Source: Eledone cirrhosa | Taxonomy: Eukaryota | Reading direction: 5' to 3' | DNA length: 64,000 nucleotides | Assembly: GCA_964016885.1 (NCBI GenBank) | Contig: CAXHJY010000192.1 | Coordinates: forward strand, 28,170 to 92,169 | Shown: piece by piece, positions 576-62,790 of the stretch | Position numbering within the stretch: position 1 is the first letter of the stretch | Layout of the letters: each line of letters starts with the position of its first letter | Notes under the pieces: generated by a model | Told to the model about the DNA's origin: nothing | What the model saw: only the letters and a program-made list of their open reading frames with translations | Database searches by the model: none | Translations under genes and position numbers: made by a program

Positions 576-1717
576 TATATATATGTGGCTCCTATTTCTA
601 GCAGTCCTAGTAACCAGGTATAGATTGTCCCAGTCTTTACAGGGAAAAGCGGACGTAAAATGATGGCTGGATAACATTCATGAGCTCGGCTGGTTTCACT
701 TGGGGGATCCAGCTGTATCAATTGGAGACAGTCGCTTCTGACAGGACCCACTGGGGAGTTTCTGAGGACTCTGCCCCCACGACTCTCCCAAGAAGAAGAA
801 GAAAAGAAGGAGGAGAAGAAGAAAACACTCACCATACTAGTAACTAGATTTATCTCCCTTGTCTTACCACTTTTAAATAGTTGTCTCCCTTACATCAATT
901 TTTTTGTGGTGTGTTTTTACGTAAAGAACTTTTTTTAAACATTCTATCTTGTTTTTGTTAGCTGAAAAAACTACCAGATTCCTGCCCTAGTCTGTTATGG
1001 CTTACTAGCTCTATACGGACGTTGAAATTGATTAAGTAAATAGAGCATAAAAAGCCGGCGAATTGGCAGAGCCTCTAGAAAATCGGGATTTGAACAGACA
1101 CAGGCTTTTTTAATCCAACACCTTAACTCCATAGCCTAACACAGCGATCAGGGACATTCTAAACCATCATCATCGTTTAACATCCATTTTCCACACTAGC
1201 ATGGGTTAGACAGTTTGTCCCGTTTGAGGCAATTTGAGTGCGGTGACCGTGTCTTGCTCACACAGAACTATTTCTGGCCTGGTTTCAATGGCTGGATGCA
1301 CTTCCTAACTCCAATTGAAATTCTTAGAAAATATATGAAACCCAAAAGCAGAAAATAACTGAAACCACAGTTGATTGCAATAAATAATATCTTAGAATAT
1401 TGGGTAAAATACCTCTATGGATGGCAAAAGTTGTCAGTAGCCACTAAGGAGAAGTGAACTCCGTGTCACTCAAATTCTGATCGTGTGGAGCTAAGGGGCC
1501 TCTGATTGAAATATATTCTTGGTATTTTGTACTGTGTTGTAAACTAAATAACAGAAGTTATTGGGGTGGGGAGCAGTGGGAGGAAAAGAGGGTGGAAGAG
1601 AGAGGGATGGGAGAGATGGAGAGAAGGAAAGAAAGAGGAATGGAAGAAGAGATAGAGAGCGAGAGACAGAGCAAAAAAGAGACAAAGAGGGGAGTGAGAA
1701 AAGAGTGAATTACTTAC

Positions 1718-1870
1718 CACCAGACAATAAAAAGAGTAGTGAACACCAGGAATGTAACAGCCCATCAGACCAAAGATGATGCCAGATAGGTCTATAGCCA
1801 ACCATCGGATGTTGGCTTTAGGTGAATGACAGTAGAATACATGGTAGGAGGCAGACGTTATCATACAAAT
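1718..1870 (-). CDS. PAQR3: PAQR3-like progestin/adipoQ receptor, coding exon 3
   Basis: Minus strand ctccag|ATT...GTG|gtaagt, 153 bp, phase 0/0. Translates ICMITSASYHVFYCHSPKANIRWLAIDLSGIIFGLMGCYIPGVHYSFYCLV, with the PAQR SxxYH and D motifs. Confidence 0.9.
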
Positions 1871-2524
1871 CTGGAGAGAAGAGATGAACAAGAAACAAAA
1901 AATAAATGCATACAAAAAATATAATTCAATATGACGTCATAGTTACCGAATATATATTGTTTGTTCTGTTTGAACCTATTGTTTTGACAAGGGGATATTT
2001 CCACTGAAATATAAAGGACCAATGAAATATTTTCAAAGTAATATGGAAATATATTTCACCATGAGACTGTGTGTGCCATGTGACAATGAAATATTTTTCC
2101 ACCATACAGGAGCATGTGATTGTGTGTACTATAGTTTCTGTTCTGCTATAGCTCCTTCAACCTTTTCTTTTGACAAGGGGATATTTCCACTGAAATATAT
2201 AGGACCAATGAAATATTTCAAAAGAATCATTACAACAGTTTTGTTATTGTTTATTTTTAATACTTAATGTTTTATTTGCATTGCTTCTAAAATACTGTTT
2301 TCTATATTTCCCGCAGTCAAGCAAACTAGAACAACCTCCTATTATCATCATCGTAATCGTTTTTACGTCCGTTTTTCCACACATGCATGGGTTGGACAGG
2401 TCCATTTCAGCAAAGCATCTCTCCACTCACTACATTCATTTGTCATTTCCTCTGTGAGTCTCAGCAATTTGAGATCAGCTCTCACCACTTCTGCCCAGGT
2501 CTTTCTTGCTCTACTTCTACTGTG

Positions 2525-7394: not shown

Positions 7395-9850
7395 GACAGT
7401 GTGGATTGATTGCTTTTTGTCTTGTCACTAGCATAACTGCCATACAGAATGGACTGGTTGCTTTTTGTCTTGTCACTAGCATACTGCCATACAGAATGGA
7501 CTGGGTGCTTTTTGTCTTGTCACTAGCATACTGCCATACAGAATGGACTGGGTGCTTTTTGTCTTGTCACTAGCATACTGCCATACAGAATGGACTGGGT
7601 GCTTTTTGTCTTGTCACTAGCATACTGCCATACAGAATGGACTGGTTGCTTTTTGTCTTGTCACTAGCATACTGCCATACAGAATGGACTGGGTGCTTTT
7701 TGTCTTGTCACTAGCATACTGCCATACAGAATGGACTGGGTGCTTTTTGTCTTGTCACTAGCATGACTGCCATACAGAATGGACTGGGTGCTTTTTGTCT
7801 TGTCACTAGCATGACTGCCATACAGAATGGACTGGTTGCTTTTTGTCTTGTCACTAGCATACTGCCATACAGAATGGACTGGGTGCTTTTTGTCTTGTCA
7901 CTAGCATGACTGCCATACAGAATGGACTGGGTGCTTTTTGTCTTGTCACTAGCATGACTGCCATACAGAATGGACTGGGTGCTTTTTGTCTTGTCACTAG
8001 CATGACTGCCATACAGAATGGACTGGGTGCTTTTTGTCTTGTCACTAGCATGACTGCCATACAGAATGGACTGGGTGCTTTTTGTCTTGTCACTAGCATG
8101 ACTGCCATACAGAATGGACTGGGTGCTTTTTGTCTTGTCACTAGCATGACTGCCATACAGAATGGACTGGGTGCTTTTTGTCTTGTCACTAGCATGACTG
8201 CCATACAGAATGGACTGGGTGCTTTTTGTCTTGTCACTAGCATGACTGCCATACAGAATGGACTGGTTGCTTTTTGTCTTGTCACTAGCATGACTGCCAT
8301 ACAGAATGGACTGGGTGCTTTTTGTCTTGTCACTAGCATGACTGCCATACAGAATGGACTGGTTGCTTTTTGTCTTGTCACTAGCATGACTGCCATACAG
8401 AATGGACTGGGTGCTTTTTGTCTTGTCACTAGCATGACTGCCATACAGAATGGACTGGTTGCTTTTTGTCTTGTCACTAGCATGACTGCCATACAGAATG
8501 GACTGGGTGCTTTTTGTCTTGTCACTAGCATGACTGCCATACAGGATGGACTGGGTGATTTTTGTCTTGTCACTAGCATACTGCCATACAGAATGGACTG
8601 GGTGATTTTTGTCTTGTCACTAGCATGACTGCCATACAGAATGGACTGGGTGCTTTTTGTCTTGTCACTAGCATGACTGCCATACAGAATGGACTGGGTG
8701 CTTTTTGTCTTGTCACTAGCATGACTGCCATACAGAATGGACTGGGTGCTTTTTGTCTTGTCACTAGCATGACTGCCATACAGGATGGACTGGTTGCTTT
8801 TTGTCTTGTCACTAGCATGACTGCCATACAGAATGGACTGGGTGCTTTTTGTCTTGTCACTAGCATGACTGCCATACAGAATGGACTGGGTGCTTTTTGT
8901 CTTGTCACTAGCATGACTGCCATACAGAATGGACTGGTTGCTTTTTGTCTTGTCACTAGCATGACTGCCATACAGAATGGACTGGGTGCTTTTTGTCTTG
9001 TCACTAGCATGACTGCCATACAGAATGGACTGGTTGCTTTTTGTCTTGTCACTAGCATGACTGCCATACAGAATGGACTGGGTGCTTTTTGTCTTGTCAC
9101 TAGCATGACTGCCATACAGAATGGACTGGTTGCTTTTTGTCTTGTCACTAGCATGACTGCCATACAGAATGGACTGGGTGCTTTTTGTCTTGTCACTAGC
9201 ATGACTGCCATACAGAATGGACTGGTTGCTTTTTGTCTTGTCACTAGCATGACTGCCATACAGAATGGACTGGGTGCTTTTTGTCTTGTCACTAGCATGA
9301 CTGCCATACAGGATGGACTGGGTGATTTTTGTCTTGTCACTAGCATACTGCCATACAGAATGGACTGGGTGATTTTTGTCTTGTCACTAGCATACTGCCA
9401 TACAGGATGGACTGGGTGATTTTTGTCTTGTCACTAGCATACTGCCATACAGGATGGACTGGGTGCTTTTTGTCTTGTCACTAGCATGACTGCCATACAG
9501 AATGGACTGGGTGCTTTTTGTCTTGTCACTAGCATGACTGCCATACAGAATGGACTGGGTGCTTTTTGTCTTGTCACTAGCATACTGCCATACAGGATGG
9601 ACTTGGTGATTTTTGTCTTGTCACTAGCATGACTGCCATACAGAATGGACTGGGTGCTTTTTGTCTTGTCACTAGCATACTGCCATACAAGGTGGACTGG
9701 GTGCTTTTTGTCTTGTCACTAGCATGACTGCCATACAGAATGGACTGGGTGCTTTTTGTCTTGTCACTAGCATACTGCCATACAAGGTGGACTGGGTGCT
9801 TTTTGTCTTGTCACTAGCATGATTGCCGTACAAGGTGGACTCGGTGCTTT
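7395..9850. repeat. 47/48-bp minisatellite, about 50 copies, derived from a SINE internal segment
   Basis: Unit gactgccatacagaatggactgggtgctttttgtcttgtcactagcat, embedded in a SINE that starts at about 7308. Confidence 0.95.
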
Positions 9851-10173
9851 TTCATAGTGGTACCATTACGACCCACATTACAGTGTGGACAGAGTGCTTT
9901 TTCGTCAAGGTACCAGCACAACCTCTGAATAGTGTGGACAGGGTACTTTTTTTTGTCCTGTCACCAGCATAACATAGGGTGGACTGGGTGCTTTTGTTAA
10001 AAAAAGAAACTTGTATCTCCTCTTTTATCCTTCTATATATTTAACCAGTTGACATACCCAGCTTTGCCCAGGTAAACAGATGATAAGAGAAGACAGGTAA
10101 AAAAGAAAACGACTGTATTGGATGCATTGTCTGGTTTACAGTATGGAGGCGAGACCGTGGTGTGTGTGACAAA

Positions 10174-13249: not shown

Positions 13250-13807
13250 TCTTATTTATCTGTTGTGAAGATGTGTGGCTTAGTGGTTAAGGTATCAAGC
13301 TAGTTAGCTACCTATTTATCTATCGTGAAGATGTGTGGCTTAGTGGTTAAGGTATCAAGCTAGTTAGCTAGCTATTTATCTATCGTGAAGATGTGTGGCT
13401 TAGTGGTTAGGGTATCAAGCTAGTTAGCTAGCTATTTATCTATCGTGAAGGTTTGTGGCTTAGTGGTTAAGGTATCAAGCGAGTTAGCTAGCTATTTATC
13501 TATCGTGAAGGTTTGTGGCTTAGTGGTTAAGGTATCAAGCGAGTTAGCTAGCTATTTATCTATCGTGAAGGTTTGTGGCTTAGTGGTTAAGGTATCAAGC
13601 TAGTTAGCTAGCTATTTATCTATCGTGAAGATGTGTGGCTTAGTGGTTAAGGTATCAAGCTAGTTAGCTAGCTATTTATCTATCGTGAAGATGTGTGGCT
13701 TCGTGGTTAAGGTATCAAGCTAGTTAGCTAGCTATTTATCTATCGTGAAGATGTGTGGCTTAGTGGTTAAGGTATCAAGCTAGTTAGCTAGCTATTTATC
13801 TATCGTG
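13250..13807. repeat. 60-bp minisatellite, about 9 copies, containing a SINE A-box head
   Basis: Unit tatcgtgaagatgtgtggcttagtggttaaggtatcaagctagttagctagctatttatc. Confidence 0.92.
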
Positions 13808-17329: not shown

Positions 17330-18370
17330 CCCCGCTCCTATGACTTTCGGAAACATTCTTTCACTCAGAGTTGCTGAAGCATGGAAAAAACTACCTGCAT
17401 CAGTTGTTAGCTGTCGAGACACTGCATCCTTTAAAACCTCCATGGAACAAACTACCTGCATCAGTTGTTAGCTGTCGAGACACTGCATCCTTTAAAACCT
17501 CCATGGAACAAACTACCTGCATCAGTTGTTAGCTGTCGGGACACTGCATCCTTTATAACCTCCATGGAACAAACTACCTGCATCAGTTGTTAGCTGTCGA
17601 GACACTGCATCCTTTAAAACCTCCATGGAACAAACTACCTGCATCAGTTGTTAGCTGTCGAGACACTGAATCCTTTAAAACCTCCATGAAACAAACTACC
17701 TGCATCAGTTGTTAGCTGTCGGGACACTGCATCCTTTATAACCTCCATGGAACAAACTACCTACAGCAGTTGTTAGCTGTCGGGACACTGCATCCTTTAA
17801 AACCTCCATGAAACAAACTACCTGCATCAGTTGTTAGCTGTCGGGACACTGCATCCTTTATAACCTCCATGGAACAAACTACCTGCATCAGTTGTTAGCT
17901 GTCGAGACACTGCATCCTTTAAAACCTCCATGGAACAAACTACCTGCATCAGTTATTAGCTGTCGAGACACTGCATCCTTTAAAACCTCCATGGAACAAA
18001 CTACCTGCATCAGTTGTTAGCTGTCGAGACACTGCATCCTTTAAAACCTCCATGAAACAAACTACCTACATCAGTTGTTAGCTGTCGAGACACTGCATCC
18101 TTTAAAACCTCCATGAAACAAACTACCTACATCAGTTGTTAGCTGTCGAGACACTGCATCCTTTAAAACCTCCATGCTTCCTGAAATTCTCCAACACTAC
18201 ACCTAATATCCCCACTCCATACAGTCGGAGGCATGTGTATATCCTGACTCAAACACTGTTCACTTTCCTGACATTTGTACATTATTCTTTGTACTATACA
18301 TGCACCTTTGATGAGTTGTAGTGCACTTGAGCACTGTAGACAATAATTTTCATTATTATTATTATTATTA
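17330..18370 (+). mobile_element. CR1-like LINE 3' fragment with an internal 61-bp tandem array (about 13 copies)
   Basis: Flanks match 27575-27833. Unit catggaacaaactacctgcatcagttgttagctgtcgagacactgcatcctttaaaacctc, followed by a (TTA)n tail. Confidence 0.88.
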
Positions 18371-26822: not shown

Positions 26823-27833
26823 TACATACCTGCCGTGATCTGTTCTTGGTCCCCTTTTGTTTGTGGCATATATTAATGACATAGATGCCAACTTAAAGAA
26901 TGCCACGGTATTGAAATATGCAGATGACATCAAGCTGTACTTTGAAATCAAAAGGACTGATCCTGAAATCTACAACTCTTTCCTACAATCAAACCTGGAC
27001 ACAATGCAGCAATGGATCACAGACTGGCAACTGAAGCTGGCTGTGGACAAGTGTACCACCATGCATTTTTGGAGGAAAAATCCAGCGTCCACATACTCCC
27101 TCCACAACACTGATATCAAGAAGTCCTCTTGTGAACGTGACCTGGGCATTACTGTCAGCAGCGATTTGCGTTGGACAAAGCATGTCTCTAAGATTGTCAA
27201 GAAGGCCGAGGGTGTCTTGGCATCACTCAGCAAGACCTTTGTTAGCCGCTCTCCAGCCATCTATTTAAAGCTGTATACAGCTATGGTACGACCACACTTG
27301 GAATTCGCATCATCAGTCTGGAACCCCTATCTTGCTCAGAACATTGACCTCCTGGAAACTATTCAGAGACGTGCAACCAAACGCATACCCTCCATCAGGC
27401 ACCTACCATACTCTGAACGCCTTGCTTCTCGGGGCATGGATTCATTGAAGCTCCGACGTCTGGCAATGGACTTGGTAAACACCCACAAAGTTATTAACCA
27501 TCTCGCCAACAACCCTGAGCACCTTTTTGATCTCCATGTGTCTAACACATGTGGACATGCCTACAAAGTCAGAAAACAGCACAGCTCCCATAACTTTCGG
27601 AAACATTTTTTCACGCTCAGAGTTGCTGAAGCATGGAACAAACTGCCTGCGTCAGTTGTTAGCTGCCGAGACACTGCATCCTTTAAGACCCTCATGCTTC
27701 CCGAAATTCGCCAAAACTACACCTGATGTACCCCTTCCATACACATGCACACATGTGTATATCATGACTCATGCACTGTTCATTTTCCTGACGTTTGATG
27801 AGTTGTAGTGCACATTATTATTATTATTATTAT
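26823..27833 (+). mobile_element. CR1-clade LINE, 5'-truncated (RT C-terminal half, 3' UTR, (TTA)n tail)
   Basis: YADD motif plus LYTAMVRPHLEFASSVWNPY, IQRRATKRI and FFTLRVAEAWNKLP, all typical of CR1/L2 ORF2. Confidence 0.92.
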
Positions 27834-34875: not shown

Positions 34876-34913
<38 letters not shown>

Positions 34914-35574
34914 GTGGTAAAATGTAATGTATCCTAGTTGGATAGTTCATTGACATAGACGTGAGGGAAGGTCCCTCGTCTATTTACCATTTTGTGTTTG
35001 TGAGAATTATAACAAAGTCAGTGAGTGTGTGCGCAAACAAGACAATAACCACAACGAGAGTTAAATTCAACAATTGTAAATAATGGTGATTTATTTATAC
35101 TACAAATGGAACGTACCAAATGTTGACGTGGTGAGTTGTGGTGAAAGGAACGTATTACCATTACAAAAGTATTGTGGGGTTTATTGTTTGCTGTTCCCTT
35201 GGCTGCTTTCTGTGGCGTGGTACAGAGGCTGTTTTCTGGCATGTGATCAGTCTGCTTTCTAGTGGATGTCTGTTTACTTCTCATGTTCTCAACCAGCGGG
35301 AGATAACTATGGTTGTTCTATTATCCTGGCAGGAGGCGTGAGGCGTCTTACTACAGTATCCCCTGCCAGATTTTCAAATCATCGAAAATCGATGTCATTA
35401 CTCACATGTGGAGTAAGATGGCGAACAATGCAACAAGGGGGAGCTATTCGCTCTACCAAACGTTGAATCCAGAATAAGTATTTGAAAAATGTTTAAAAAA
35501 AACAACATGCATGCATAAAAAACAAGGCAAAGAAAAAGCAGAAACACAGAGGCAAAAAAAAAAAAAAAAGGGTT

Positions 35575-35609
35575 AGCTAACATAGTCTAAATATAGACGG
35601 TGCTGCAAA
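35575..35609 (+). repeat. left copy of the 35-bp direct repeat flanking the viral insert
   Basis: agctaacatagtctaaatatagacggtgctgcaaa is identical to 38092-38126. Both copies are preceded by an A-run and gggt. Confidence 0.95.
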
Positions 35610-35610
35610 A

Positions 35611-36700
35611 TCCAATACACAGGAGATTCTTCCAAAGCATATCCTACATTTTATGGTCCGATATTGCCAGAAGTACTTAATGTTTGATATTAATAAGGAT
35701 TTGCTCCAATACGATTTCTTGAAGACAAGACAGTCAGCGGGTCCTGCCGATTTTTTTTGTAATTAATGAAGACTCTAGCTTCCCGACCCCAACTGCGGCC
35801 GATTCAACACCCAGTAATCACCATGGTCTTCTTCTTTACATTGTCACCATGTACAAAGTTGAAAATGGAAGTGGGTGACTACAAACAAAATCTAGTCAAG
35901 GATTTCAACAATTATAGAATGACGCACCCATATCGGTATATGCACGACATGTTAATAAATGGACCACTAGCTCATATAGTAAAAAATGACCAAATCTTTC
36001 AGATTATGGCTTCCATGGACTATTTGCCATTTCAACATGAGGATCATGAACTATCCCTTTTGAGAAGAGGGACAATTCTTACCAGATTTGACGGCATGCA
36101 CATAGTAGAAGTCCTCGACCATTTCAGAAAAACACTCCAATTGAGGCTTGAAGATATGATCTGTATCGTAACAATGAGGCTGGTGCTACAGAAATGTTGA
36201 GAGTACTGAAAGCCCTGAATACAGGGGCAGCTAATACTGAAATCTTCCCTTATCAAAAATCTCTCGGCTTGATCAAAAAATGTGTTTTCTCAGCAGGCTC
36301 CAATCCCTATCTACACACATTCTTCGGAATGATAGGTTGCCTCAGCAAGGATAAAAGATTTGTTAATTCCCGAAATATAGAGCCAGGACATGTTGAATCT
36401 GGTCTGGTTGACGCGCTCGCATTCAGAGTGGCTCATAGATCCAAACCGCACAAAGTCTTCTTTTATGCTGAGGAAGGACAAGTTGATGAGGATCCAGATA
36501 TAGATCTCAATCAGATAGGTTTTGGAATTTCAGAAAGTATGGTACAGATGGTGAACAGGTTTCCAAATCCGACAAGTTTTATCTCAACATTCAATAAAAG
36601 CGCGATTAGCAAAGTTAGACCCGGAACATTGGGGCAGGCTTTTAATGATTCTGTTACAGAAGCACAGAAATCTGGGGGGGGGGGGGGTATCAAGAATTGA
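35611..36700 (+). pseudogene. endogenous rhabdovirus-like nucleoprotein (N) gene, 5'-truncated and frameshifted
   Basis: Stitched frames give LLLYIVTMYKV..DYKQNL, IMASMDY..HEDHELSLLRRGTILTRF and PYQKSLGLIKKCVFSAGSNPYLH. These are collinear with vesiculovirus N motifs as I recall them: LYLLGLYRV..EYRKKL, IVAAVDMF..KHECASFRYGTIVSRF and PYLIDFGLSSKSPYSSVKNPAFH. Frameshifts at about 35755, 35873 and 36185. Confidence 0.88.
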
Positions 36701-36772
36701 AGGACTTTATAGACGGTCATTAACTTTTTATTTTTATACAATCACTTTTCATACTTTTATAACATTGTACAG

Positions 36773-36800
36773 CATCAGAAAAAAAAACTAACTCAATTTC
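36773..36800 (+). promoter_or_regulatory. rhabdovirus-type gene-end/intergenic/gene-start junction
   Basis: CATCAG-A9-CT-AACTCAATTTC between the N stop and the next ATG. Compare vesiculovirus TATG-A7-CT-AACAG. Confidence 0.8.
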
Positions 36801-36829
36801 ATACTTAACTAACAAAACCACTGCCCAAA

Positions 36830-37818
36830 ATGCCGCAAGATAGACAGAGACAGTGCAGGAAATCATACAACTATGCCAAGGGAAACAAAGTAGCCTTAGG
36901 CTCCCTTAAGGAAATCTGTGGAGCCATTGGTGCAACTACCCTTCCAGAGGACAATCGTGTGTCTGAACTTCTAGAAACATCCAGAATGGGAAGAGATGAC
37001 CCTCAAAATACACCAAGCTACGAGTATAGTGGCGAATTACCCGACTCCAGCTTGATACCTACAAAAATGGAAATAGGCTATGAATCCCAACATGAGGAGA
37101 CTAATGAACCTCCTCTTTACCAAGTAACTAAAGAGCACAGGGAAAGGAGAGAAAGAGTATCCCTACCTTTATCTCTACCACCTCCCAAAGTTGGTCAACC
37201 CTCAAGCATACCAAGTGACTTCTCTGAACCTCCTGAGAAGAGGAGTTGTCAGGGGGGGGGGGGGGGACTCTTATATACGAGTCTAACGCAATTTTTGTAT
37301 CACCTGAGGAGGCTGATATATTCAAGAGGTCATTTGATATACTCTTCAAGGATAGTATGGACAGAAATTTTCTCCCGCATGTCATTATAGAGCCTCATGG
37401 AGATATTTTGAGCATTAAAATGACAATGCGAAACATGCCTGCACAACCAGTTGAAAACGTTGTGGAAAATGTTGCTCCACCTATGCCAGTACCAGAGGAC
37501 AACACTTCATGTGCAAAACTGACTGATGAATTTCATGAAAGAATGGCTCAAATCAAATCAAAATCTATATTTTATCGCATGGACAAGTTTAAAATGGATA
37601 CCATAGGTTTAAAAGGACATGCAAAACCTGTAAACGATTTTTTGGAATTATGACTGTCAAGTCGAAAATTGAGGAATTTCCGGGATCCCCGAATGCCTGA
37701 TAAGTGGCTAGTGCTGATGATCGTGCACCTTAATCCTAATCCCATTATAAGAGCTGCCTTAGGCTTCAAAACTTTCAACAAGTATGTGCTAGAGATTAAC
37801 GACATTTTATCAACCTGA
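36830..37818 (+). pseudogene. putative viral phosphoprotein (P-position) gene, disrupted
   Basis: First ATG after the junction, with an acidic, S/P/E-rich N-terminal half. Frameshift in the G15 run at 37252-37266. After an in-frame TGA at 37651-37653 the frame stays open to TGA 37816-37818. Identity is from position and composition only. Confidence 0.65.
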
Positions 37819-38091
37819 TAACTATTCATTGAGTTCACTCAAATTCATGAGTTACAGGACATAATCTTCACAATGGAAGTATTACATATAAGTCTCCAGA
37901 AGTCACCCCATTTTACTCATTATTTTTCAGACTGCAGATACCAAAACACTGATATACAGCATGGAATCAGTCATTTTAACAAACTAGGACAAATTAACAC
38001 AAACAAAACCGACTATCTCTGTATAATGCCTCAAGAGCCTTATATTGCTTTTGCCTTATAAATTTAAACAGGAAAAAAAAAAAAAGGGTGC

Positions 38092-38126
38092 AGCTAACAT
38101 AGTCTAAATATAGACGGTGCTGCAAA
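38092..38126 (+). repeat. right copy of the 35-bp direct repeat, after A13
   Basis: Identical to 35575-35609 and preceded by CAGG-A13 (A-run 38073-38085). Confidence 0.95.
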
Positions 38127-38525
38127 TTTTTTGGGGCCAGTGGACCCTACGACCTGAACGGGTCGTGGTCTTGTAACGTGGCGATGGTGGTGGTGTAGAA
38201 ATTAGAGATGAAATGTATGTTTATTTTTGATGTAGCACAAACAATGTTTGTTAACTTATGTGGTTGAAGTTACACATAAAAAGAGGTTACAAAAGGGAAT
38301 GTGCCATTGCGCCGGAAAGCCGGCAGGCTAAGGTGCAAAATCTCACCGTTACATTGTACGTGTTGCTGGTTCGAAGTTCCTGGTGCGAGAGAGAGATTCT
38401 TCAAATCTTCGCGGGGAAATTTCTCTCTCAGGGCGCGTAGGGATACATCCTCTTCTACTGGCGCTGATTGGCTGAACTGAGCTAAATCACGCACAGAGAA
38501 TGTATGTGAGCCCGCGGAATGTAGG

Positions 38526-38582
<57 letters not shown>

Positions 38583-44284: not shown

Positions 44285-44310
<26 letters not shown>

Positions 44311-44321
<11 letters not shown>

Positions 44322-47300
44322 GATCGAGTATCGAAAAATCGGCGCACGAGTTAACGAAAAACGAAATTCGATATGAGCGGCAGAGGGCTCAATAATTCAG
44401 ATGAATCAGAGCTATAACTATCGTTAAAATACCGTCACATATAGAACAAGTCTACAATCAACCATACGATTTAAAATCGATAAAGGAAGATTCGGGCCAA
44501 ACAGATAAAAAATATCAATAAAACAATACGTCAATAATTTAAATGAATGTAAAATCATACCCGGACCCACTAGAAAGGTGTTAAATCTAGCTTCATGGGT
44601 TTCTGTAAATCCTTAGACAGTACTCTATCAGCTCACATATAAATATAAAAGCCTACTAGAATAAGTGGAACGGAGTTTACGTTGTCAACGAGTTTTATCC
44701 TGGCGGCAAAGGAGTCAACTAGCGGTGAAAAACGCACATGGCATTAGACAAGGGAGATGACCCCTATATCCGCGAAAATAATTCGAGTGAATGTGGAAAT
44801 ACACATATCGAATTAGAGTGCTCAATAGACATGTTAAAATAAAACAAAAGCTATTCATCACTCAATAGAATCGACAAAATATGAGCAATAAAATTAACTG
44901 GTGGATAGCTAAGTCCAGAGCTAAATATATTAGAAAGATCGAGTATCGAAAAATCGGCGCACGAGTTAACGAAAAACGAAATTCGATATGAGCGGCAGAG
45001 GGCTCAATAATTCAGATGAATCAGAGCTATAACTATCGTTAAAATACCGTCACATATAGAACAAGTCTACAATCAACCATACGATTTAAAATCGATAAAG
45101 GAAGATTCGGGCCAAACAGATAAAAAATATCAATAAAACAATACGTCAATAATTTAAATGAATGTAAAATCATACCCGGACCCACTAGAAAGGTGTTAAA
45201 TCTAGCTTCATGGGTTTCTGTAAATCCTTAGACAGTACTCTATCAGCTCACATATAAATATAAAAGCCTACTAGAATAAGTGGAACGGAGTTTACGTTGT
45301 CAACGAGTTTTATCCTGGCGGCAAAGGAGTCAACTAGCGGTGAAAAACGCACATGGCATTAGACAAGGGAGATGACCCCTATATCCGCGAAAATAATTCG
45401 AGTGAATGTGGAAATACACATATCGAATTAGAGTGCTCAATAGACATGTTAAAATAAAACAAAAGCTATTCATCACTCAATAGAATCGACAAAATATGAG
45501 CAATAAAATTAACTGGTGGATAGCTATGTCCAGAGCTAAATATATTAGAAAGATCGAGTATCGAAAAATCGGCGCACGAGTTAACGAAAAACGAAATTCG
45601 ATATGAGCGGCAGAGGGCTCAATAATTCAGATGAATCAGAGCTATAACTATCGTTAAAATACCGTCACATATAGAACAAGTCTACAATCAACCATACGAT
45701 TTAAAATCGATAAAGGAAGATTCGGGCCAAACAGATAAAAAATATCAATAAAACAATACGTCAATAATTTAAATGAATGTAAAATCATACCCGGACCCAC
45801 TAGAAAGGTGTTAAATCTAGCTTCATGGGTTTCTGTAAATCCTTAGACAGTACTCTATCAGCTCACATATAAATATAAAAGCCTACTAGAATAAGTGGAA
45901 CGGAGTTTACGTTGTCAACGAGTTTTATCCTGGCGGCAAAGGAGTCAACTAGCGGTGAAAAACGCACATGGCATTAGACAAGGGAGATGACCCCTATATC
46001 CGCGAAAATAATTCGAGTGAATGTGGAAATACACATATCGAATTAGAGTGCTCAATAGACATGTTAAAATAAAACAAAAGCTATTCATCACTCAATAGAA
46101 TCGACAAAATATGAGCAATAAAATTAACTGGTGGATAGCTATGTCCAGAGCTAAATATATTAGAAAGATCGAGTATCGAAAAATCGGCGCACGAGTTAAC
46201 GAAAAACGAAATTCGATATGAGCGGCAGAGGGCTCAATAATTCAGATGAATCAGAGCTATAACTATCGTTAAAATACCGTCACATATAGAACAAGTCTAC
46301 AATCAACCATACGATTTAAAATCGATAAAGGAAGATTCGGGCCAAACAGATAAAAAATATCAATAAAACAATACGTCAATAATTTAAATGAATGTAAAAT
46401 CATACCCGGACCCACTAGAAAGGTGTTAAATCTAGCTTCATGGGTTTCTGTAAATCCTTAGACAGTACTCTATCAGCTCACATATAAATATAAAAGCCTA
46501 CTAGAATAAGTGGAACGGAGTTTACGTTGTCAACGAGTTTTATCCTGGCGGCAAAGGAGTCAACTAGCGGTGAAAAACGCACATGGCATTAGACAAGGGA
46601 GATGACCCCTATATCCGCGAAAATAATTCGAGTGAATGTGGAAATACACATATCGAATTAGAGTGCTCAATAGACATGTTAAAATAAAACAAAAGCTATT
46701 CATCACTCAATAGAATCGACAAAATATGAGCAATAAAATTAACTGGTGGATAGCTATGTCCAGAGCTAAATATATTAGAAAGATCGAGTATCGAAAAATC
46801 GGCGCACGAGTTAACGAAAAACGAAATTCGATATGAGCGGCAGAGGGCTCAATAATTCAGATGAATCAGAGCTATAACTATCGTTAAAATACCGTCACAT
46901 ATAGAACAAGTCTACAATCAACCATACGATTTAAAATCGATAAAGGAAGATTCGGGCCAAACAGATAAAAAATATCAATAAAACAATACGTCAATAATTT
47001 AAATGAATGTAAAATCATACCCGGACCCACTAGAAAGGTGTTAAATCTAGCTTCATGGGTTTCTGTAAATCCTTAGACAGTACTCTATCAGCTCACATAT
47101 AAATATAAAAGCCTACTAGAATAAGTGGAACGGAGTTTACGTTGTCAACGAGTTTTATCCTGGCGGCAAAGGAGTCAACTAGCGGTGAAAAACGCACATG
47201 GCATTAGACAAGGGAGATGACCCCTATATCCGCGAAAATAATTCGAGTGAATGTGGAAATACACATATCGAATTAGAGTGCTCAATAGACATGTTAAAAT

Positions 47301-49336
47301 AAAACAAAAGCTATTCATCACTCAATAGAATCGACAAAATATGAGCAATAAAATTAACTGGTGGATAGCTATGTCCAGAGCTAAATATATTAGAAAGATC
47401 GAGTATCGAAAAATCGGCGCACGAGTTAACGAAAAACGAAATTCGATATGAGCGGCAGAGGGCTCAATAATTCAGATGAATCAGAGCTATAACTATCGTT
47501 AAAATACCGTCACATATAGAACAAGTCTACAATCAACCATACGATTTAAAATCGATAAAGGAAGATTCGGGCCAAACAGATAAAAAATATCAATAAAACA
47601 ATACGTCAATAATTTAAATGAATGTAAAATCATACCCGGACCCACTAGAAAGGTGTTAAATCTAGCTTCATGGGTTTCTGTAAATCCTTAGACAGTACTC
47701 TATCAGCTCACATATAAATATAAAAGCCTACTAGAATAAGTGGAACGGAGTTTACGTTGTCAACGAGTTTTATCCTGGCGGCAAAGGAGTCAACTAGCGG
47801 TGAAAAACGCACATGGCATTAGACAAGGGAGATGACCCCTATATCCGCGAAAATAATTCGAGTGAATGTGGAAATACACATATCGAATTAGAGTGCTCAA
47901 TAGACATGTTAAAATAAAACAAAAGCTATTCATCACTCAATAGAATCGACAAAATATGAGCAATAAAATTAACTGGTGGATAGCTATGTCCAGAGCTAAA
48001 TATATTAGAAAGATCGAGTATCGAAAAATCGGCGCACGAGTTAACGAAAAACGAAATTCGATATGAGCGGCAGAGGGCTCAATAATTCAGATGAATCAGA
48101 GCTATAACTATCGTTAAAATACCGTCACATATAGAACAAGTCTACAATCAACCATACGATTTAAAATCGATAAAGGAAGATTCGGGCCAAACAGATAAAA
48201 AATATCAATAAAACAATACGTCAATAATTTAAATGAATGTAAAATCATACCCGGACCCACTAGAAAGGTGTTAAATCTAGCTTCATGGGTTTCTGTAAAT
48301 CCTTAGACAGTACTCTATCAGCTCACATATAAATATAAAAGCCTACTAGAATAAGTGGAACGGAGTTTACGTTGTCAACGAGTTTTATCCTGGCGGCAAA
48401 GGAGTCAACTAGCGGTGAAAAACGCACATGGCATTAGACAAGGGAGATGACCCCTATATCCGCGAAAATAATTCGAGTGAATGTGGAAATACACATATCG
48501 AATTAGAGTGCTCAATAGACATGTTAAAATAAAACAAAAGCTATTCATCACTCAATAGAATCGACAAAATATGAGCAATAAAATTAACTGGTGGATAGCT
48601 ATGTCCAGAGCTAAATATATTAGAAAGATCGAGTATCGAAAAATCGGCGCACGAGTTAACGAAAAACGAAATTCGATATGAGCGGCAGAGGGCTCAATAA
48701 TTCAGATGAATCAGAGCTATAACTATCGTTAAAATACCGTCACATATAGAACAAGTCTACAATCAACCATACGATTTAAAATCGATAAAGGAAGATTCGG
48801 GCCAAACAGATAAAAAATATCAATAAAACAATACGTCAATAATTTAAATGAATGTAAAATCATACCCGGACCCACTAGAAAGGTGTTAAATCTAGCTTCA
48901 TGGGTTTCTGTAAATCCTTAGACAGTACTCTATCAGCTCACATATAAATATAAAAGCCTACTAGAATAAGTGGAACGGAGTTTACGTTGTCAACGAGTTT
49001 TATCCTGGCGGCAAAGGAGTCAACTAGCGGTGAAAAACGCACATGGCATTAGACAAGGGAGATGACCCCTATATCCGCGAAAATAATTCGAGTGAATGTG
49101 GAAATACACATATCGAATTAGAGTGCTCAATAGACATGTTAAAATAAAACAAAAGCTATTCATCACTCAATAGAATCGACAAAAAATGAGCAATAAAATT
49201 AACTGGTGGATAGCTATGTCCAGAGCTAAATATATTAGAAAGATCGAGTATCGAAAAATCGGCGCACGAGTTAACGAAAAACGAAATTCGATATGAGCGG
49301 CAGAGGGCTCAATAATTCAGATGAATCAGAGCTATA
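44311..49336. repeat. 615-bp tandem array, 8 full copies plus about 105 bp, inserted in (TA)n
   Basis: Units start at 44311, 44926, 45541, 46156, 46771, 47386, 48001, 48616 and 49231. I saw only two substitutions (about 44912 and 49185). No ORF in the unit. Confidence 0.97.
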
Positions 49337-55495: not shown

Positions 55496-57338
55496 CAGCA
55501 TTTCTCAACCAGTGTTCCCCGGAACCCTAGGATTTCGCAAGAGGTCGCTAGGGGTTCCGCGAGAACCAGTGATAAATAAACTAATGTATTTTAAAAAGTA
55601 ATTTTTGTTTAATTTTATATTCGTAATTTTACTATACATTTACGGCATATTGTTGGAAAATCCTTGTTTATTTTAAGAAAGGCTTCAACTTCTTATATTA
55701 TTTAAAACTAGGTCAATATAAGAGATAGATATTAATAATTGTTTCTACTTTAGGCACAAGGCCAGCAATTACCCAGTACATTACTGGTACTTTATTTTAT
55801 TGACCCCGTAAGGATGAAAGGCAAAGTTAACCTCGGCGGGATTTGAACTCAGAATAGCAAGGGCCGTAACTCTATGCGTCAAATCATGGCGTCCGACCTT
55901 CTACCAATACACCGCCCTTAGATCATCATCATCATCATTTTACGTCCGCTTTTCCCTGCTTGCAAGGGTAGGACGGGTCTTATTCAGCACAGCATCTCTC
56001 CACTCGTCACGGCCCCTCATCATCTCCACCATGAGCTTCAATGATCTGAGGTCTGTTCTCACCACCTCCGCCCATGTTTTTCGTGGTCTACCTCTACCAC
56101 GTCTTCCCTCAACTGGCAATTCCTGGCACTTTTTCACCCATCGGTCATCCTCCATGCGCATCACATGTCCATACCACCTCAGTCTCCTCTCCCGTACACT
56201 ACATTCTATCCCTCTCAGACACAGTTTCTCTCTCAACACATTTATGCTGGGTTGTTCACGCACATTTATACTGCACATCTAACGGAGCATGCTTGCCTCA
56301 TTTCTATCCAGCCATCGCATATCCTCTGCAGTTGCTGCCCATGTCTCACTACCATGCAGCATCGCACTCCTCACACAGGCATCATACAACCGGCCTTTCG
56401 TACGCAGGGAGAAACCCGTCTTCGTCAACAAAGGAAGCAGTTCCCTAAACTTCTTCCAACCCGTCCTTATTCTAGATACTATGGCCTCGGAACACCCTCC
56501 TCCCATGCTAATCTGATCTCCTAGGTACCGGAAGCTATCCACCACTTCTATAGCGCCCTCTTGCATTTGAAAAATGTGTCTATCAGTGCGACTTTTACTG
56601 TCTAATTTCCCTGTACATCTACTGCATACATATTTCTCCCTACCTGTTAGTTTGCCTGCTATCCCGCTACATCTCTTGTGTATCCAGGATCTGCATTGTG
56701 TGCATTTTATAGAATTTATGCCAGTTCCTTTTCTGCATATCGAACATGGCCATTTCCCTGACGGAATCAAGGTTTTGTCCTCTTTTCTACTCATCAACAC
56801 TTTTGTCTTAGCTAGATTCACTCTCAGTCCTCTTGCTTCCAACTGCTGTTTCCATAGCCAGAATTTATTCTCTAGCTCCTCTACTGATTCTGCTATAAGA
56901 ACCAGATCGTCAGCATAGAGAAGTTCCCATGGACAGCCAGTCTTAAACTCCTCTGTTATGGCTTGGAGGACTATAATGAACAAGAGCGGACTGAGGACCG
57001 AACTCTGTACTCCTACTTGTATCTGGAATTCCTCACTAAACTCCATTCCTACCCTGACTTTACTGAGAGTACCTCTGTACAAAGTTTGCACTGTCCTCAC
57101 AAGCCATTCCTCAACACCTAGCTTCCTTAGGGACCACCAGATGACAGATCGGGGTACCCTATCAAAGGCCTTCTCTAGGTCAACAAAGGCTAAGTATAGT
57201 GGCTTATTCTTCTCTAAGAACCTCTCTTGCAATTAGATAGATATTAATAATGGTATATAATAATTTTTATGTAGGGGTTCCCTGAGACATGAACCTATTT
57301 CAAGGGTTCCACAAGGGTAAAAAGATTGAGAAACGCTG
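55496..57338. mobile_element. hAT (Charlie-like) MITE interrupted by a retroelement insertion
   Basis: TIRs cagcatttctcaa / ttgagaaacgctg. 8-bp TSD atctagac at 55488-55495 and 57339-57346. Confidence 0.8.
55921..57232 (-). mobile_element. RTE-clade LINE, 5'-truncated, RT domain with one premature stop
   Basis: FVDLEKAFDRV, LSPLLF and LLYADDL motifs. TAG at 56279-56281 where the copy at 1-575 has TGG. (GAT)n tail. Confidence 0.93.
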
Positions 57339-61641: not shown

Positions 61642-62790
61642 CTACCTTAAAAAGTCAAACGAAATTAATTCTTTCAATTGTGTTGGAAGATTTAAATCTT
61701 TCACCTTATCCAATTTTCTTCCTAACTGCTGGCGTATAGTAAGTGCACAGATGTCTGCGAGAGATTTAGGGTTGCCAACCAGTTCCAAAAGCCACAACAT
61801 AACTTCCTCATGGGGACTGTCCCTAAAAGGAGGGTTCTTTAATCGTAACCAACTCTCAGAATTTACATTGTAACCAGAATGCACAAGTAATTTTATCATT
61901 TTCGAATCTGCCCTGAGAGTGGCAGTATATAAAGGTGAATGTCCTGCATTGTTGGCTGTGTTAAGTCTAACATTTTCTGTAATTAAATACTTAGCCACTT
62001 CATACCTGTTGTGGTAAACGGCCAGGTGGAAGGCAGTGAAACCGTGAAGGGTTTGTCCTTCTACGTCAATTCCACAGCTAACTAACAGTTTCACTATGTG
62101 TAAGTGTCCACAGCTTGCAGCTATGTGAAGGGCCGTTTCATTATCGTTCGTAGTCCTATTGATATCGGCACTTACCCGGATCAACATTTCCACAACCTTT
62201 ATGTAACCATAGCAGGTTGATGTGTGTATAGGCGCCCACCCGTCCCTATCAACCATATCAACTTTGGCACCATACCGAATTAGTAGTTCGCAAATATCCA
62301 AATGTCCCAGGCATGTCGCAGCATGTAACGGTGTAAAGCGGTCCATTTGAGCAATATTAACACTGGCTCCCATTCGGATTAAATACTCAGCAATTTGGAC
62401 GTGTCCATGTGTAGAAGCCCAGTGCAAAGCTGTTTTCTCGTCGCCGTCTCGACAGTCGACATCAACACCGACTTTTAAAAGGGCCTGTACATAGTTCAAA
62501 TGACCCTTGGCAGCGGCGATATGGATGGGTCGCCGAAACCAAATGTGGTCAGTAAAATCAGGCTGGGCCAAATCACAGTTGGCCTCAATAAGCATGTTTA
62601 AAACATCTATGTTACCTCGTTCGGAAGCTACACATATCGGACTGTAGCCTTCCAACACGAAACATGGACAAACATTTTTCTCTTTGATATATCTTCGGAC
62701 TTTGTCCACGTCGTCATAGGAAATTGCTTCCAACAGTTCCCGTTGACCAAATTCACCTCCCGTCGTGTAGCTACATGGTAGCATCTTCAT
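61642..62790 (-). CDS. ankyrin-repeat and SOCS-box protein (ASB-like), 382 aa, single coding exon
   Basis: About 8 ankyrin repeats (TALHWAS, TPLHAAT, TALHIAA and others) and a C-terminal SOCS box PKSLADICALTIRQQLG...LNLPTQLKELI. Intact ATG to stop. Confidence 0.93.
   Translation of the reverse strand: MKMLPCSYTTGGEFGQRELLEAISYDDVDKVRRYIKEKNVCPCFVLEGYSPICVASERGNIDVLNMLIEANCDLAQPDFTDHIWFRRPIHIAAAKGHLNYVQALLKVGVDVDCRDGDEKTALHWASTHGHVQIAEYLIRMGASVNIAQMDRFTPLHAATCLGHLDICELLIRYGAKVDMVDRDGWAPIHTSTCYGYIKVVEMLIRVSADINRTTNDNETALHIAASCGHLHIVKLLVSCGIDVEGQTLHGFTAFHLAVYHNRYEVAKYLITENVRLNTANNAGHSPLYTATLRADSKMIKLLVHSGYNVNSESWLRLKNPPFRDSPHEEVMLWLLELVGNPKSLADICALTIRQQLGRKLDKVKDLNLPTQLKELISFDFLR

What the first reader, a model, noticed from the sequence alone, without database searches (positions are those of the whole stretch)
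35554..38126. Viral insert has the shape of a LINE-retroposed bicistronic N-P read-through mRNA with a long target-site duplication
Seen: A16-gggt-[35-bp repeat], then N starting mid-gene, an internal junction, the P-position ORF, CAGG-A13-gggt and the same 35-bp repeat. Established: 5' truncation, a 3' poly(A) and a TSD mark target-primed reverse transcription, and rhabdovirus polymerases produce occasional read-through mRNAs. Inference: the P gene-end poly(A) primed at a genomic A-run. The duplicated target of about 40-55 bp may implicate the RTE elements that are abundant here.
Basis: partly seen in the sequence, partly recalled or inferred. Interest (0 to 1): 0.72.

Follow-up and report, generated by a model that had tools for sequence, protein, structure and literature searches.

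The report
Rhabdovirus two-gene fossil in octopod DNA
A 2.5-kb piece of a rhabdovirus-like RNA, covering two neighbouring genes, was copied into a repeat element of an octopus-type genome and duplicated 41-54 bases of the landing site, which records a germ-line infection by a virus lineage with few known relatives.

Summary
Window 35610-38072 is a broken rhabdovirus-like N gene lacking its first ~62 codons, a gene junction (A9-CT-AAC), a second ~330-codon gene and a second gene-end A-run, between two copies of a 35-bp word. It lies in a high-copy ~1.1-kb repeat whose empty form has one A-run and one copy of it. Both window copies share a minority base of that family, so one target was duplicated (41-54 bp). 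The insert is single and unbranched in one sample, and its left junction is in raw reads of another study. Best reading (0.68): target-primed reverse transcription of an N-P read-through mRNA at a T-tract nick. Three steps are not shown. The second gene is P by position and layout only. The 3' A-run cannot be told apart from the target's own A-run, so a poly(A) tail is unproven. RTE as the enzyme is not supported: published RTE duplications are mostly 7-15 bp and the window's one RTE copy has 17 bp. The mechanism is known from bornavirus N/X/P fossils in bats; host, virus family and duplication length differ.

The parts
34913..35553 (.). Left part of a high-copy host repeat (starts TG after a (TA)n array)
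   Evidence: Summed contig depth 436-6942 in run X1 against 12.7 on the insert; end sequence
35554..35609 (+). Left copy of the target-site duplication: A16, GGGT-T, 35-mer
   Evidence: host origin
35610..36700 (+). Rhabdovirus-like nucleoprotein pseudogene, first ~62 codons missing; frame changes near 35750-35757, 35856-35866 and 36158-36173; G14 run at 36674-36687
   Evidence: Pfam PF00945; weak PDB hits to rhabdovirus nucleoproteins; tblastn with P0001-P0005; blastp
36773..36794 (+). Gene junction: CATCAG-A9 (gene end), CT (intergenic), AACTC (gene start)
   Evidence: compared with VSV signals as given in PMC6636387
36830..37818 (+). Second gene, P by position (~330 codons): Pro/Ser/Thr/acid-rich first half, folded middle domain, C-terminal part; frame change at G15 (37252-37266), stop at 37651
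   Evidence: no sequence or fold homologue found
37267..37446 (+). 60-residue domain predicted as strand-strand-helix-strand-strand, candidate oligomerisation domain of P
   Evidence: AlphaFold2 single sequence, pLDDT 88.7; likeness to the VSV P central domain is recalled, not returned by any search
37873..38061 (+). 62-codon ORF behind gene 2 in the same transcription unit, possible accessory gene
   Evidence: 28 of 5000 shuffles (0.0056) gave an ATG ORF this long in the 255-nt region; such consecutive ORFs are described in PMC4334499; no homology search run on it
38066..38085 (+). Second gene-end-like signal (AAACAGG) and A13: viral A-run and target A-run merged
38079..38126 (+). Right copy of the duplication in register with the empty form (A7, GGGTGC, 35-mer)
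   Evidence: 243 raw reads of X6 join left-flank letters to 38079; X4 contig 12 runs 38079-38198 with 83 letters before it
38127..38533 (.). Right part of the host repeat; other copies end in CTACA, so the ~1.1-kb unit has TG...CA ends (solo-LTR-like, inferred)
   Evidence: Depth 1781-100058 in X1; X4 loose end behind 38505; length 1096 nt

Best explanation
A rhabdovirus infecting a germ-line cell of an octopod made an mRNA in which the polymerase read through the first gene junction and stopped at the end of gene 2. A host non-LTR retrotransposon enzyme nicked the bottom strand of a resident ~1.1-kb repeat at its T-tract, the viral A-tail paired with the freed T-run, reverse transcription stopped ~62 codons short of the N start, and the second nick 41-54 nt away duplicated the target. 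The copy then decayed. SHOWN: viral N, junction, truncation, host origin and single-target origin of the duplication, presence in more than one sample. INFERRED: gene 2 = P, mRNA rather than another plus-strand template, target-primed reverse transcription. OPEN: which LINE (RTE about 0.25; an A-tail-type clade such as L1/Tx1, or another, the rest).
For: Duplication begins with the target's own A-run and the insert ends at a gene-end A-run. Empty form with one A-run and one 35-mer: 243 X6 reads carry left-flank letters identical to 35524-35553 directly before 38079, and an X4 contig of depth 21 covers both sides. Both window copies have G after the A-run where 463 of 500 X6 reads and 1111 of 1187 X1 depth have A, so one target copy was doubled. 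Insert is in mRNA sense, 5'-truncated, unbranched and flat at depth 12.7 in X1, share running on into unlike sequence 0. 145 X6 molecules begin at 35510 and 99 of 99 end at 35764, spanning the left junction. Precedent: bat bornavirus N/X/P insert with signals, poly-A and duplication (PMC10288550).
Against: 41-54 bp is far above the usual 7-18 bp (L1) and 7-15 bp (RTE). The A13 may contain no added poly(A). The tool's joint table did not list the 35553-38079 joint (rows at the A-rich repeat were skipped), so the empty form rests on loose ends and one contig, and these are paralogous copies, not the orthologous empty allele. Gene 2 has no detected homologue. The target looks like a solo LTR, and invertebrate viral inserts are reported mainly beside LTR elements and without duplications or tails.
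Confidence: 0.68

Rival explanations
1. Same target-primed reaction, but the template was a longer plus-strand RNA (three-gene read-through or antigenome) primed internally at the templated A7 of the second gene end.
For: Right A-run (13) is no longer than the left (16), so no added tail is needed; the target also resembles the gene end just before the A-run (family D2).
Against: Longer read-through RNAs are rarer and antigenomes are coated in N (established knowledge of Mononegavirales, recalled); priming ignored the first, equally good A-run at 36779 only if the template ran past it, which holds for both readings.
Confidence: 0.13
2. Template switching by an LTR-retrotransposon reverse transcriptase: it left the element's RNA at the A/U-run, copied viral RNA, and returned ~48 nt back, giving a pseudo-duplication inside the LTR.
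For: Target has TG...CA ends and ~1.1 kb; the first two insert bases (AT) match the majority form of the repeat after the 35-mer (38127 T>A in 211 of 237 reads); this route is proposed for mosquito viral inserts (PMC5497376); it would explain the unusual length.
Against: Needs two jumps and later solo-LTR formation; the LTR identity is inferred only; no internal LTR-element sequence beside the unit (both sides are TA arrays); one end falls exactly on a gene-end signal.
Confidence: 0.1
3. A free viral cDNA was captured during repair of a staggered double-strand break, with A-run pairing at one end and short microhomology at the other.
For: Long duplication and 2-nt junction match fit repair; no LINE sequence is attached.
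Against: Exact end at the gene-end A-run placed on the target's A-run, and 5' truncation, are what target priming predicts without further assumptions.
Confidence: 0.08
4. Assembly artefact: viral reads joined between two copies of a host repeat.
For: Flanks are high-copy; long homopolymers in the window; X1's contig differs by 31 gap letters.
Against: Left junction in raw DNA reads of another study; one contig from 35582 to 38107 reaches into both repeat copies; gene 2's stop is not among X1's 10 substitutions.
Confidence: 0.01

Closest known systems
miEBLN/X/P-1 of miniopterid bats (PMC10288550; passages read)
   Same: Mononegaviral N plus downstream P-region captured as one read-through transcript, with internal signals, A-tail and flanking duplication; second gene invisible to BLAST and found by position.
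   Different: Bornavirus (nuclear), mammal, L1, 8-bp duplication, read-through a regular product; here a rhabdovirus, a mollusc, 41-54 bp, 5'-truncated, enzyme unknown.
Rhabdovirus-derived inserts of mosquitoes and ticks (PMC2987831, PMC5497376; passages)
   Same: Same virus family, invertebrate host, N-derived, sits in an LTR-like repeat.
   Different: Those papers report no duplications or tails in insects, no contiguous genes, and no M or P inserts in mosquitoes; this one has a duplication and a second gene.
Octopus bimaculoides rhabdovirus-nucleocapsid-domain protein (UniRef name for P0003)
   Same: Nearest named relative: 28-61% identity over four pieces.
   Different: Keeps the N-terminus; its genomic context was not obtainable; too distant to be the same insertion.
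RTE-clade LINE insertions (PMC6007223, PMC1291365, PMC9115989)
   Same: Present in the window and reported active in Octopus.
   Different: Microsatellite tails, mostly 7-15-bp duplications, T-stretch upstream; none matches this site.

Membership tests
Rhabdoviridae-derived endogenous viral element | Homology to a rhabdovirus protein | tested here: met
   PF00945 E 5.5e-6 and 6e-4; 13 relatives at E<=0.001; tblastn E 1e-40 to 1e-48
Rhabdoviridae-derived endogenous viral element | Gene-end A7 / intergenic / AAC gene-start junction | tested here: met
   A9-CT-AAC between N stop and next ATG; the four bases before the A-run differ from VSV's
Rhabdoviridae-derived endogenous viral element | Integrated in host DNA and inherited | tested here: met
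   Junction in raw reads of X6 and contig of X1, two studies; X1 may be the window's source animal
Rhabdoviridae-derived endogenous viral element | Placement in a genus by L phylogeny | not testable with these tools
   No L gene; no exogenous relative found
Rhabdovirus phosphoprotein P | Second transcription unit after N | tested here: met
   ATG 36830, 40 nt after the gene start
Rhabdovirus phosphoprotein P | Disordered N-part, oligomerisation domain, C-terminal domain; homology or fold match | tested here: inconclusive
   Composition and a confident middle domain fit the layout; no sequence or fold match to any P
LINE-mediated (target-primed) retrocopy | Target-site duplication of host origin | tested here: met
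LINE-mediated (target-primed) retrocopy | 5' truncation in mRNA sense | tested here: met
   N starts at residue ~62 of P0003
LINE-mediated (target-primed) retrocopy | Non-templated 3' poly(A) | tested here: inconclusive
   A13 against A7-8 in the empty form but A16 in the left copy
LINE-mediated (target-primed) retrocopy | Orthologous empty allele | not testable with these tools
   No genome held; flanks are repeats, only paralogous empty copies seen
RTE-clade mobilised sequence | Duplication mostly 7-15 bp | tested here: not met
   41-54 bp; local RTE copy 17 bp
RTE-clade mobilised sequence | RTE-type 3' end with microsatellite tail; T-stretch ~10 nt upstream | tested here: not met
   Insert ends in an A-run with no match to the window's RTE or SINE ends; 0 T in 30 nt upstream. 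The T-stretch is weak in animal RTE LINEs, so this is light evidence.

The most novel reading that the evidence does not exclude
Octopods carry a LINE that mobilises A-tailed foreign RNAs in trans with a characteristic 40-55-bp stagger, and it has repeatedly fixed mRNAs of a cephalopod-specific rhabdovirus lineage; this copy, set in an LTR-like repeat, is transcribed antisense and yields antiviral piRNAs, and it preserves the lineage's P gene, a small accessory gene and both transcription signals.
Probability: 0.12. Interest if true: 0.75.

Novelty: new variant of a known kind. Interest (0 to 1): 0.52.

Why it matters
It is direct evidence that a rhabdovirus reached the germ line of an octopod; six library searches (listings only) returned no paper on such elements in cephalopods. 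It gives the second gene and the junction signals of a lineage otherwise seen here only as N fragments, which are usable probes for finding the living virus in octopus RNA data. It extends read-through-mRNA capture from bornaviruses in mammals to a rhabdovirus in a mollusc, and poses a testable question: which octopus LINE makes retrocopies with 40-55-bp duplications.

Tried and rejected
No genome held for this window, so no genome-wide duplication survey or count of copies. Cluster look-up for N relatives could not be made. No relative of N found in metagenome or viral contigs. Gene 2: no hit among 81 candidates, PDB sequences, Pfam, ESM Atlas (under 0.9); fold searches of the 183-residue model (pLDDT 39) and the 60-residue model (best Z 5.5, rmsd 4.4, 60 aligned, a designed protein) returned no P. 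Homodimer prediction of the middle domain: no verdict. ESM Atlas for P0003: nothing usable. No RNA holder listed. X4 has no depth on the insert but its repeat depth is many times below X1's, so absence is uninformative. X5 (another organism label) has one 182-nt contig identical to 37728-37909 at depth 3.1; too thin to interpret. 4 of 8 listed runs were laid. Rejected: the 35-mer as a viral gene start (it contains CTAACA) because its depth is 1187 against 12.7. Rejected: mixed read tails behind 38126-38130 as the end of the host element; they start at an AATT site and are more likely library ligation products (inference). Rfam: nothing relevant. A recalled report of very long duplications for nematode RTE-1 could not be found (0 papers) and is not used. 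PMC3229293 had no read-through passage; two papers were not held; a recalled DOI gave an unrelated paper. Earlier findings: none. No supplements were read; duplication-length tables there could bear on the RTE question.

Full report
1. Observation. The sequence shows A16 (35554-35569), GGGT-T and a 35-mer (35575-35609) on the left, and A13 (38073-38085), GGGT-GC and the same 35-mer (38092-38126) on the right. These are the only two matches in the window; 0 of 100 shuffles gave two. Between them lie 2463 nt.

2. Host. A window ankyrin ORF is 92% identical to an Argonauta protein and at most 46% to named proteins of other molluscs, and the nearest named relative of the viral N is from Octopus bimaculoides. 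The host is therefore an octopod (inference). The window holds two reverse-transcriptase fragments. I call them RTE-like (55919-57233, and a second copy at 1-579) and CR1-like (26839-27723) from recalled motifs.

3. Viral content. Two pieces match Pfam Rhabdo_ncap, with weak hits to solved rhabdovirus nucleoproteins and 13 relatives among 1.84 billion representatives. P0003 aligns from its residue 62 at 35608 through four pieces in changing frames, and nothing else in the window matches. So N lacks about 62 codons and has three frame changes in this copy. After N comes CATCAG-A9-CT-AACTC, the only internal long A-run; VSV's signals are a U7 gene end and an AAC start (PMC6636387, passages). Gene 2 runs from ATG 36830 to 37818 with a frame change at G15 and a stop at 37651. 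Its first half is rich in Pro, Ser/Thr and acids, and residues at 37267-37446 fold confidently as two strands, a helix and two strands. That fits the modular layout of P (PMC7592205, passages), and the strand-helix order matches my recall of the VSV central domain, but no sequence or fold search returned a P. A 62-codon ORF follows in the same unit (shuffle fraction 0.0056). The insert ends in AAACAGG-A13.

4. The empty site. Eight runs were listed and four laid. In X1 the insert is one unbranched contig, 35582-38107, at flat depth 12.7, while the flanks reach 436 to 100,058: they are a high-copy repeat, and the stretch just before the 35-mer stands at 1187. In X6 (raw reduced-representation reads, another study) 243 reads carry, directly before 38079, thirty letters identical to window 35524-35553. 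In X4 a 294-nt contig of depth 21 covers 38079-38198 with 83 letters before it, and a contig of the same depth shows differences at 35494; I read these as one record. So empty copies read left flank, A7-8, GG(G)TGC, 35-mer, right flank. At 38086 the family mostly has A (463 of 500 X6 reads; 1111 of 1187 in X1), but both window copies have G after the A-run, which points to one target doubled. The duplication is at least 41 bp (40 on the left), 48-49 in register with the empty form, and up to 54 with the whole right A-run. Other copies end in CTACA and the unit starts TG, giving about 1.1 kb with TG...CA ends between TA arrays: a solo-LTR-like element (inferred, family not identified).

5. Reality and age. 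In X6, 145 molecules begin at 35510 and 99 of 99 end at 35764, matching SphI and MluCI sites (enzyme names inferred) and spanning the left junction. X1's contig differs from the window by 10 substitutions and 31 gap letters, so it is another allele; the gap positions were not shown, so some frame changes may be private to the window's copy or to its assembly. The stop in gene 2 is not among the 10. X1 may come from the source animal; X6 is a separate study. Whether the insert is fixed is unknown. The 10 substitutions cluster in 35981-37042 (P 0.0025), and 5 of 9 coding ones are synonymous (P 0.027 under equal rates, which ignores transition bias); this is unexplained and weak.

6. Mechanism. 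An mRNA-sense, 5'-truncated insert that ends at a gene-end A-run, placed on a target whose duplication begins with an A-run, is what target-primed reverse transcription gives. Two genes with the junction intact imply read-through. The weak step is the tail: the left run (16) exceeds the right (13), so this target copy may have had a long run already, and internal priming on a longer RNA is not excluded (0.13). A template switch inside an LTR RNA (0.10) or break repair (0.08) could also give a long direct repeat. Best reading 0.68.

7. Which enzyme. L1 duplications are mostly 7-18 bp and RTE 7-15 bp (PMC6007223, section read); very long ones are mentioned for L1 (PMC2912911, PMC1291365, passages). 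In the window I checked 19 hand-set element boundaries besides the insert: the RTE-plus-SINE unit has a 17-bp flanking repeat and two SINEs 12 bp; two longer matches (33, 25) include a neighbouring SINE tail, two (24, 20) are TA arrays, and the other 12 are 11 or less. None approaches 41 bp of unique target. RTE tails here are (ATG)n. RTE is reported active in Octopus (PMC9115989, passages), so I leave it at about 0.25.

8. Comparison. It works like the bat bornavirus N/X/P insert (PMC10288550, passages), whose authors predicted similar cases in other mononegaviruses. It is a rhabdovirus-derived endogenous element by homology and signals. It differs from the arthropod cases in the passages read: no duplications or tails in insects and no contiguous genes (PMC2987831), no P or M inserts in mosquitoes (PMC5497376). 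Searches listed nothing on cephalopod rhabdovirus elements or on read-through rhabdovirus inserts; the library lacks most subscription papers, so this is not proof of absence.

9. Verdict. New variant of a known kind; interest 0.52.

Noticed in passing
window 35981-37042: All 10 substitutions between run X1's allele and the window fall in this 1.06-kb part of the 2.5-kb insert, and 5 of 9 coding ones are synonymous; unexplained.
   Followed up: partly
window 36674-36687 and 37252-37266: G14 and G15 runs inside the viral genes, the second at gene 2's frame change; similar G/C runs occur in host DNA nearby (34224), so host slippage is likely.
   Followed up: no
window 37873-38061: 62-codon ORF after gene 2 with no junction before it; possible accessory gene.
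   Followed up: partly
window 34913-35553 and 38079-38533: Unclassified ~1.1-kb TG...CA repeat between TA arrays; depth is highest at the right end (about 8000 times the insert's) and a shorter family member joins 34978 to 38243. A CCAAT motif reads on the minus strand at 38467-38471, facing the insert.
   Followed up: partly
window 55731-57233 (-): RTE-like fragment with a PHD-like finger behind the RT, followed directly by a SINE; the pair is flanked by one 17-bp repeat, as if moved together.
   Followed up: partly
window 44290-49200: Eight near-identical 615-bp tandem units with no long open frame.
   Followed up: partly
window 7411-9852, 17380-18176, 13253-13807: Minisatellites of 48, 61 and 60 bp; the 61-bp unit derives from the 3' part of the CR1-like element.
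   Followed up: no
window 61645-62790 (-) and 1547-1936 (-): Host coding pieces: an ankyrin-repeat ORF of 382 codons and a haemolysin-III-related (PAQR-type) exon.
   Followed up: partly
P0001, P0002, P0003: Three N fragments closer to this element (43-61% in aligned pieces) than the full-length N proteins found; P0003 is from Octopus bimaculoides, suggesting more inserts of the same virus lineage.
   Followed up: partly
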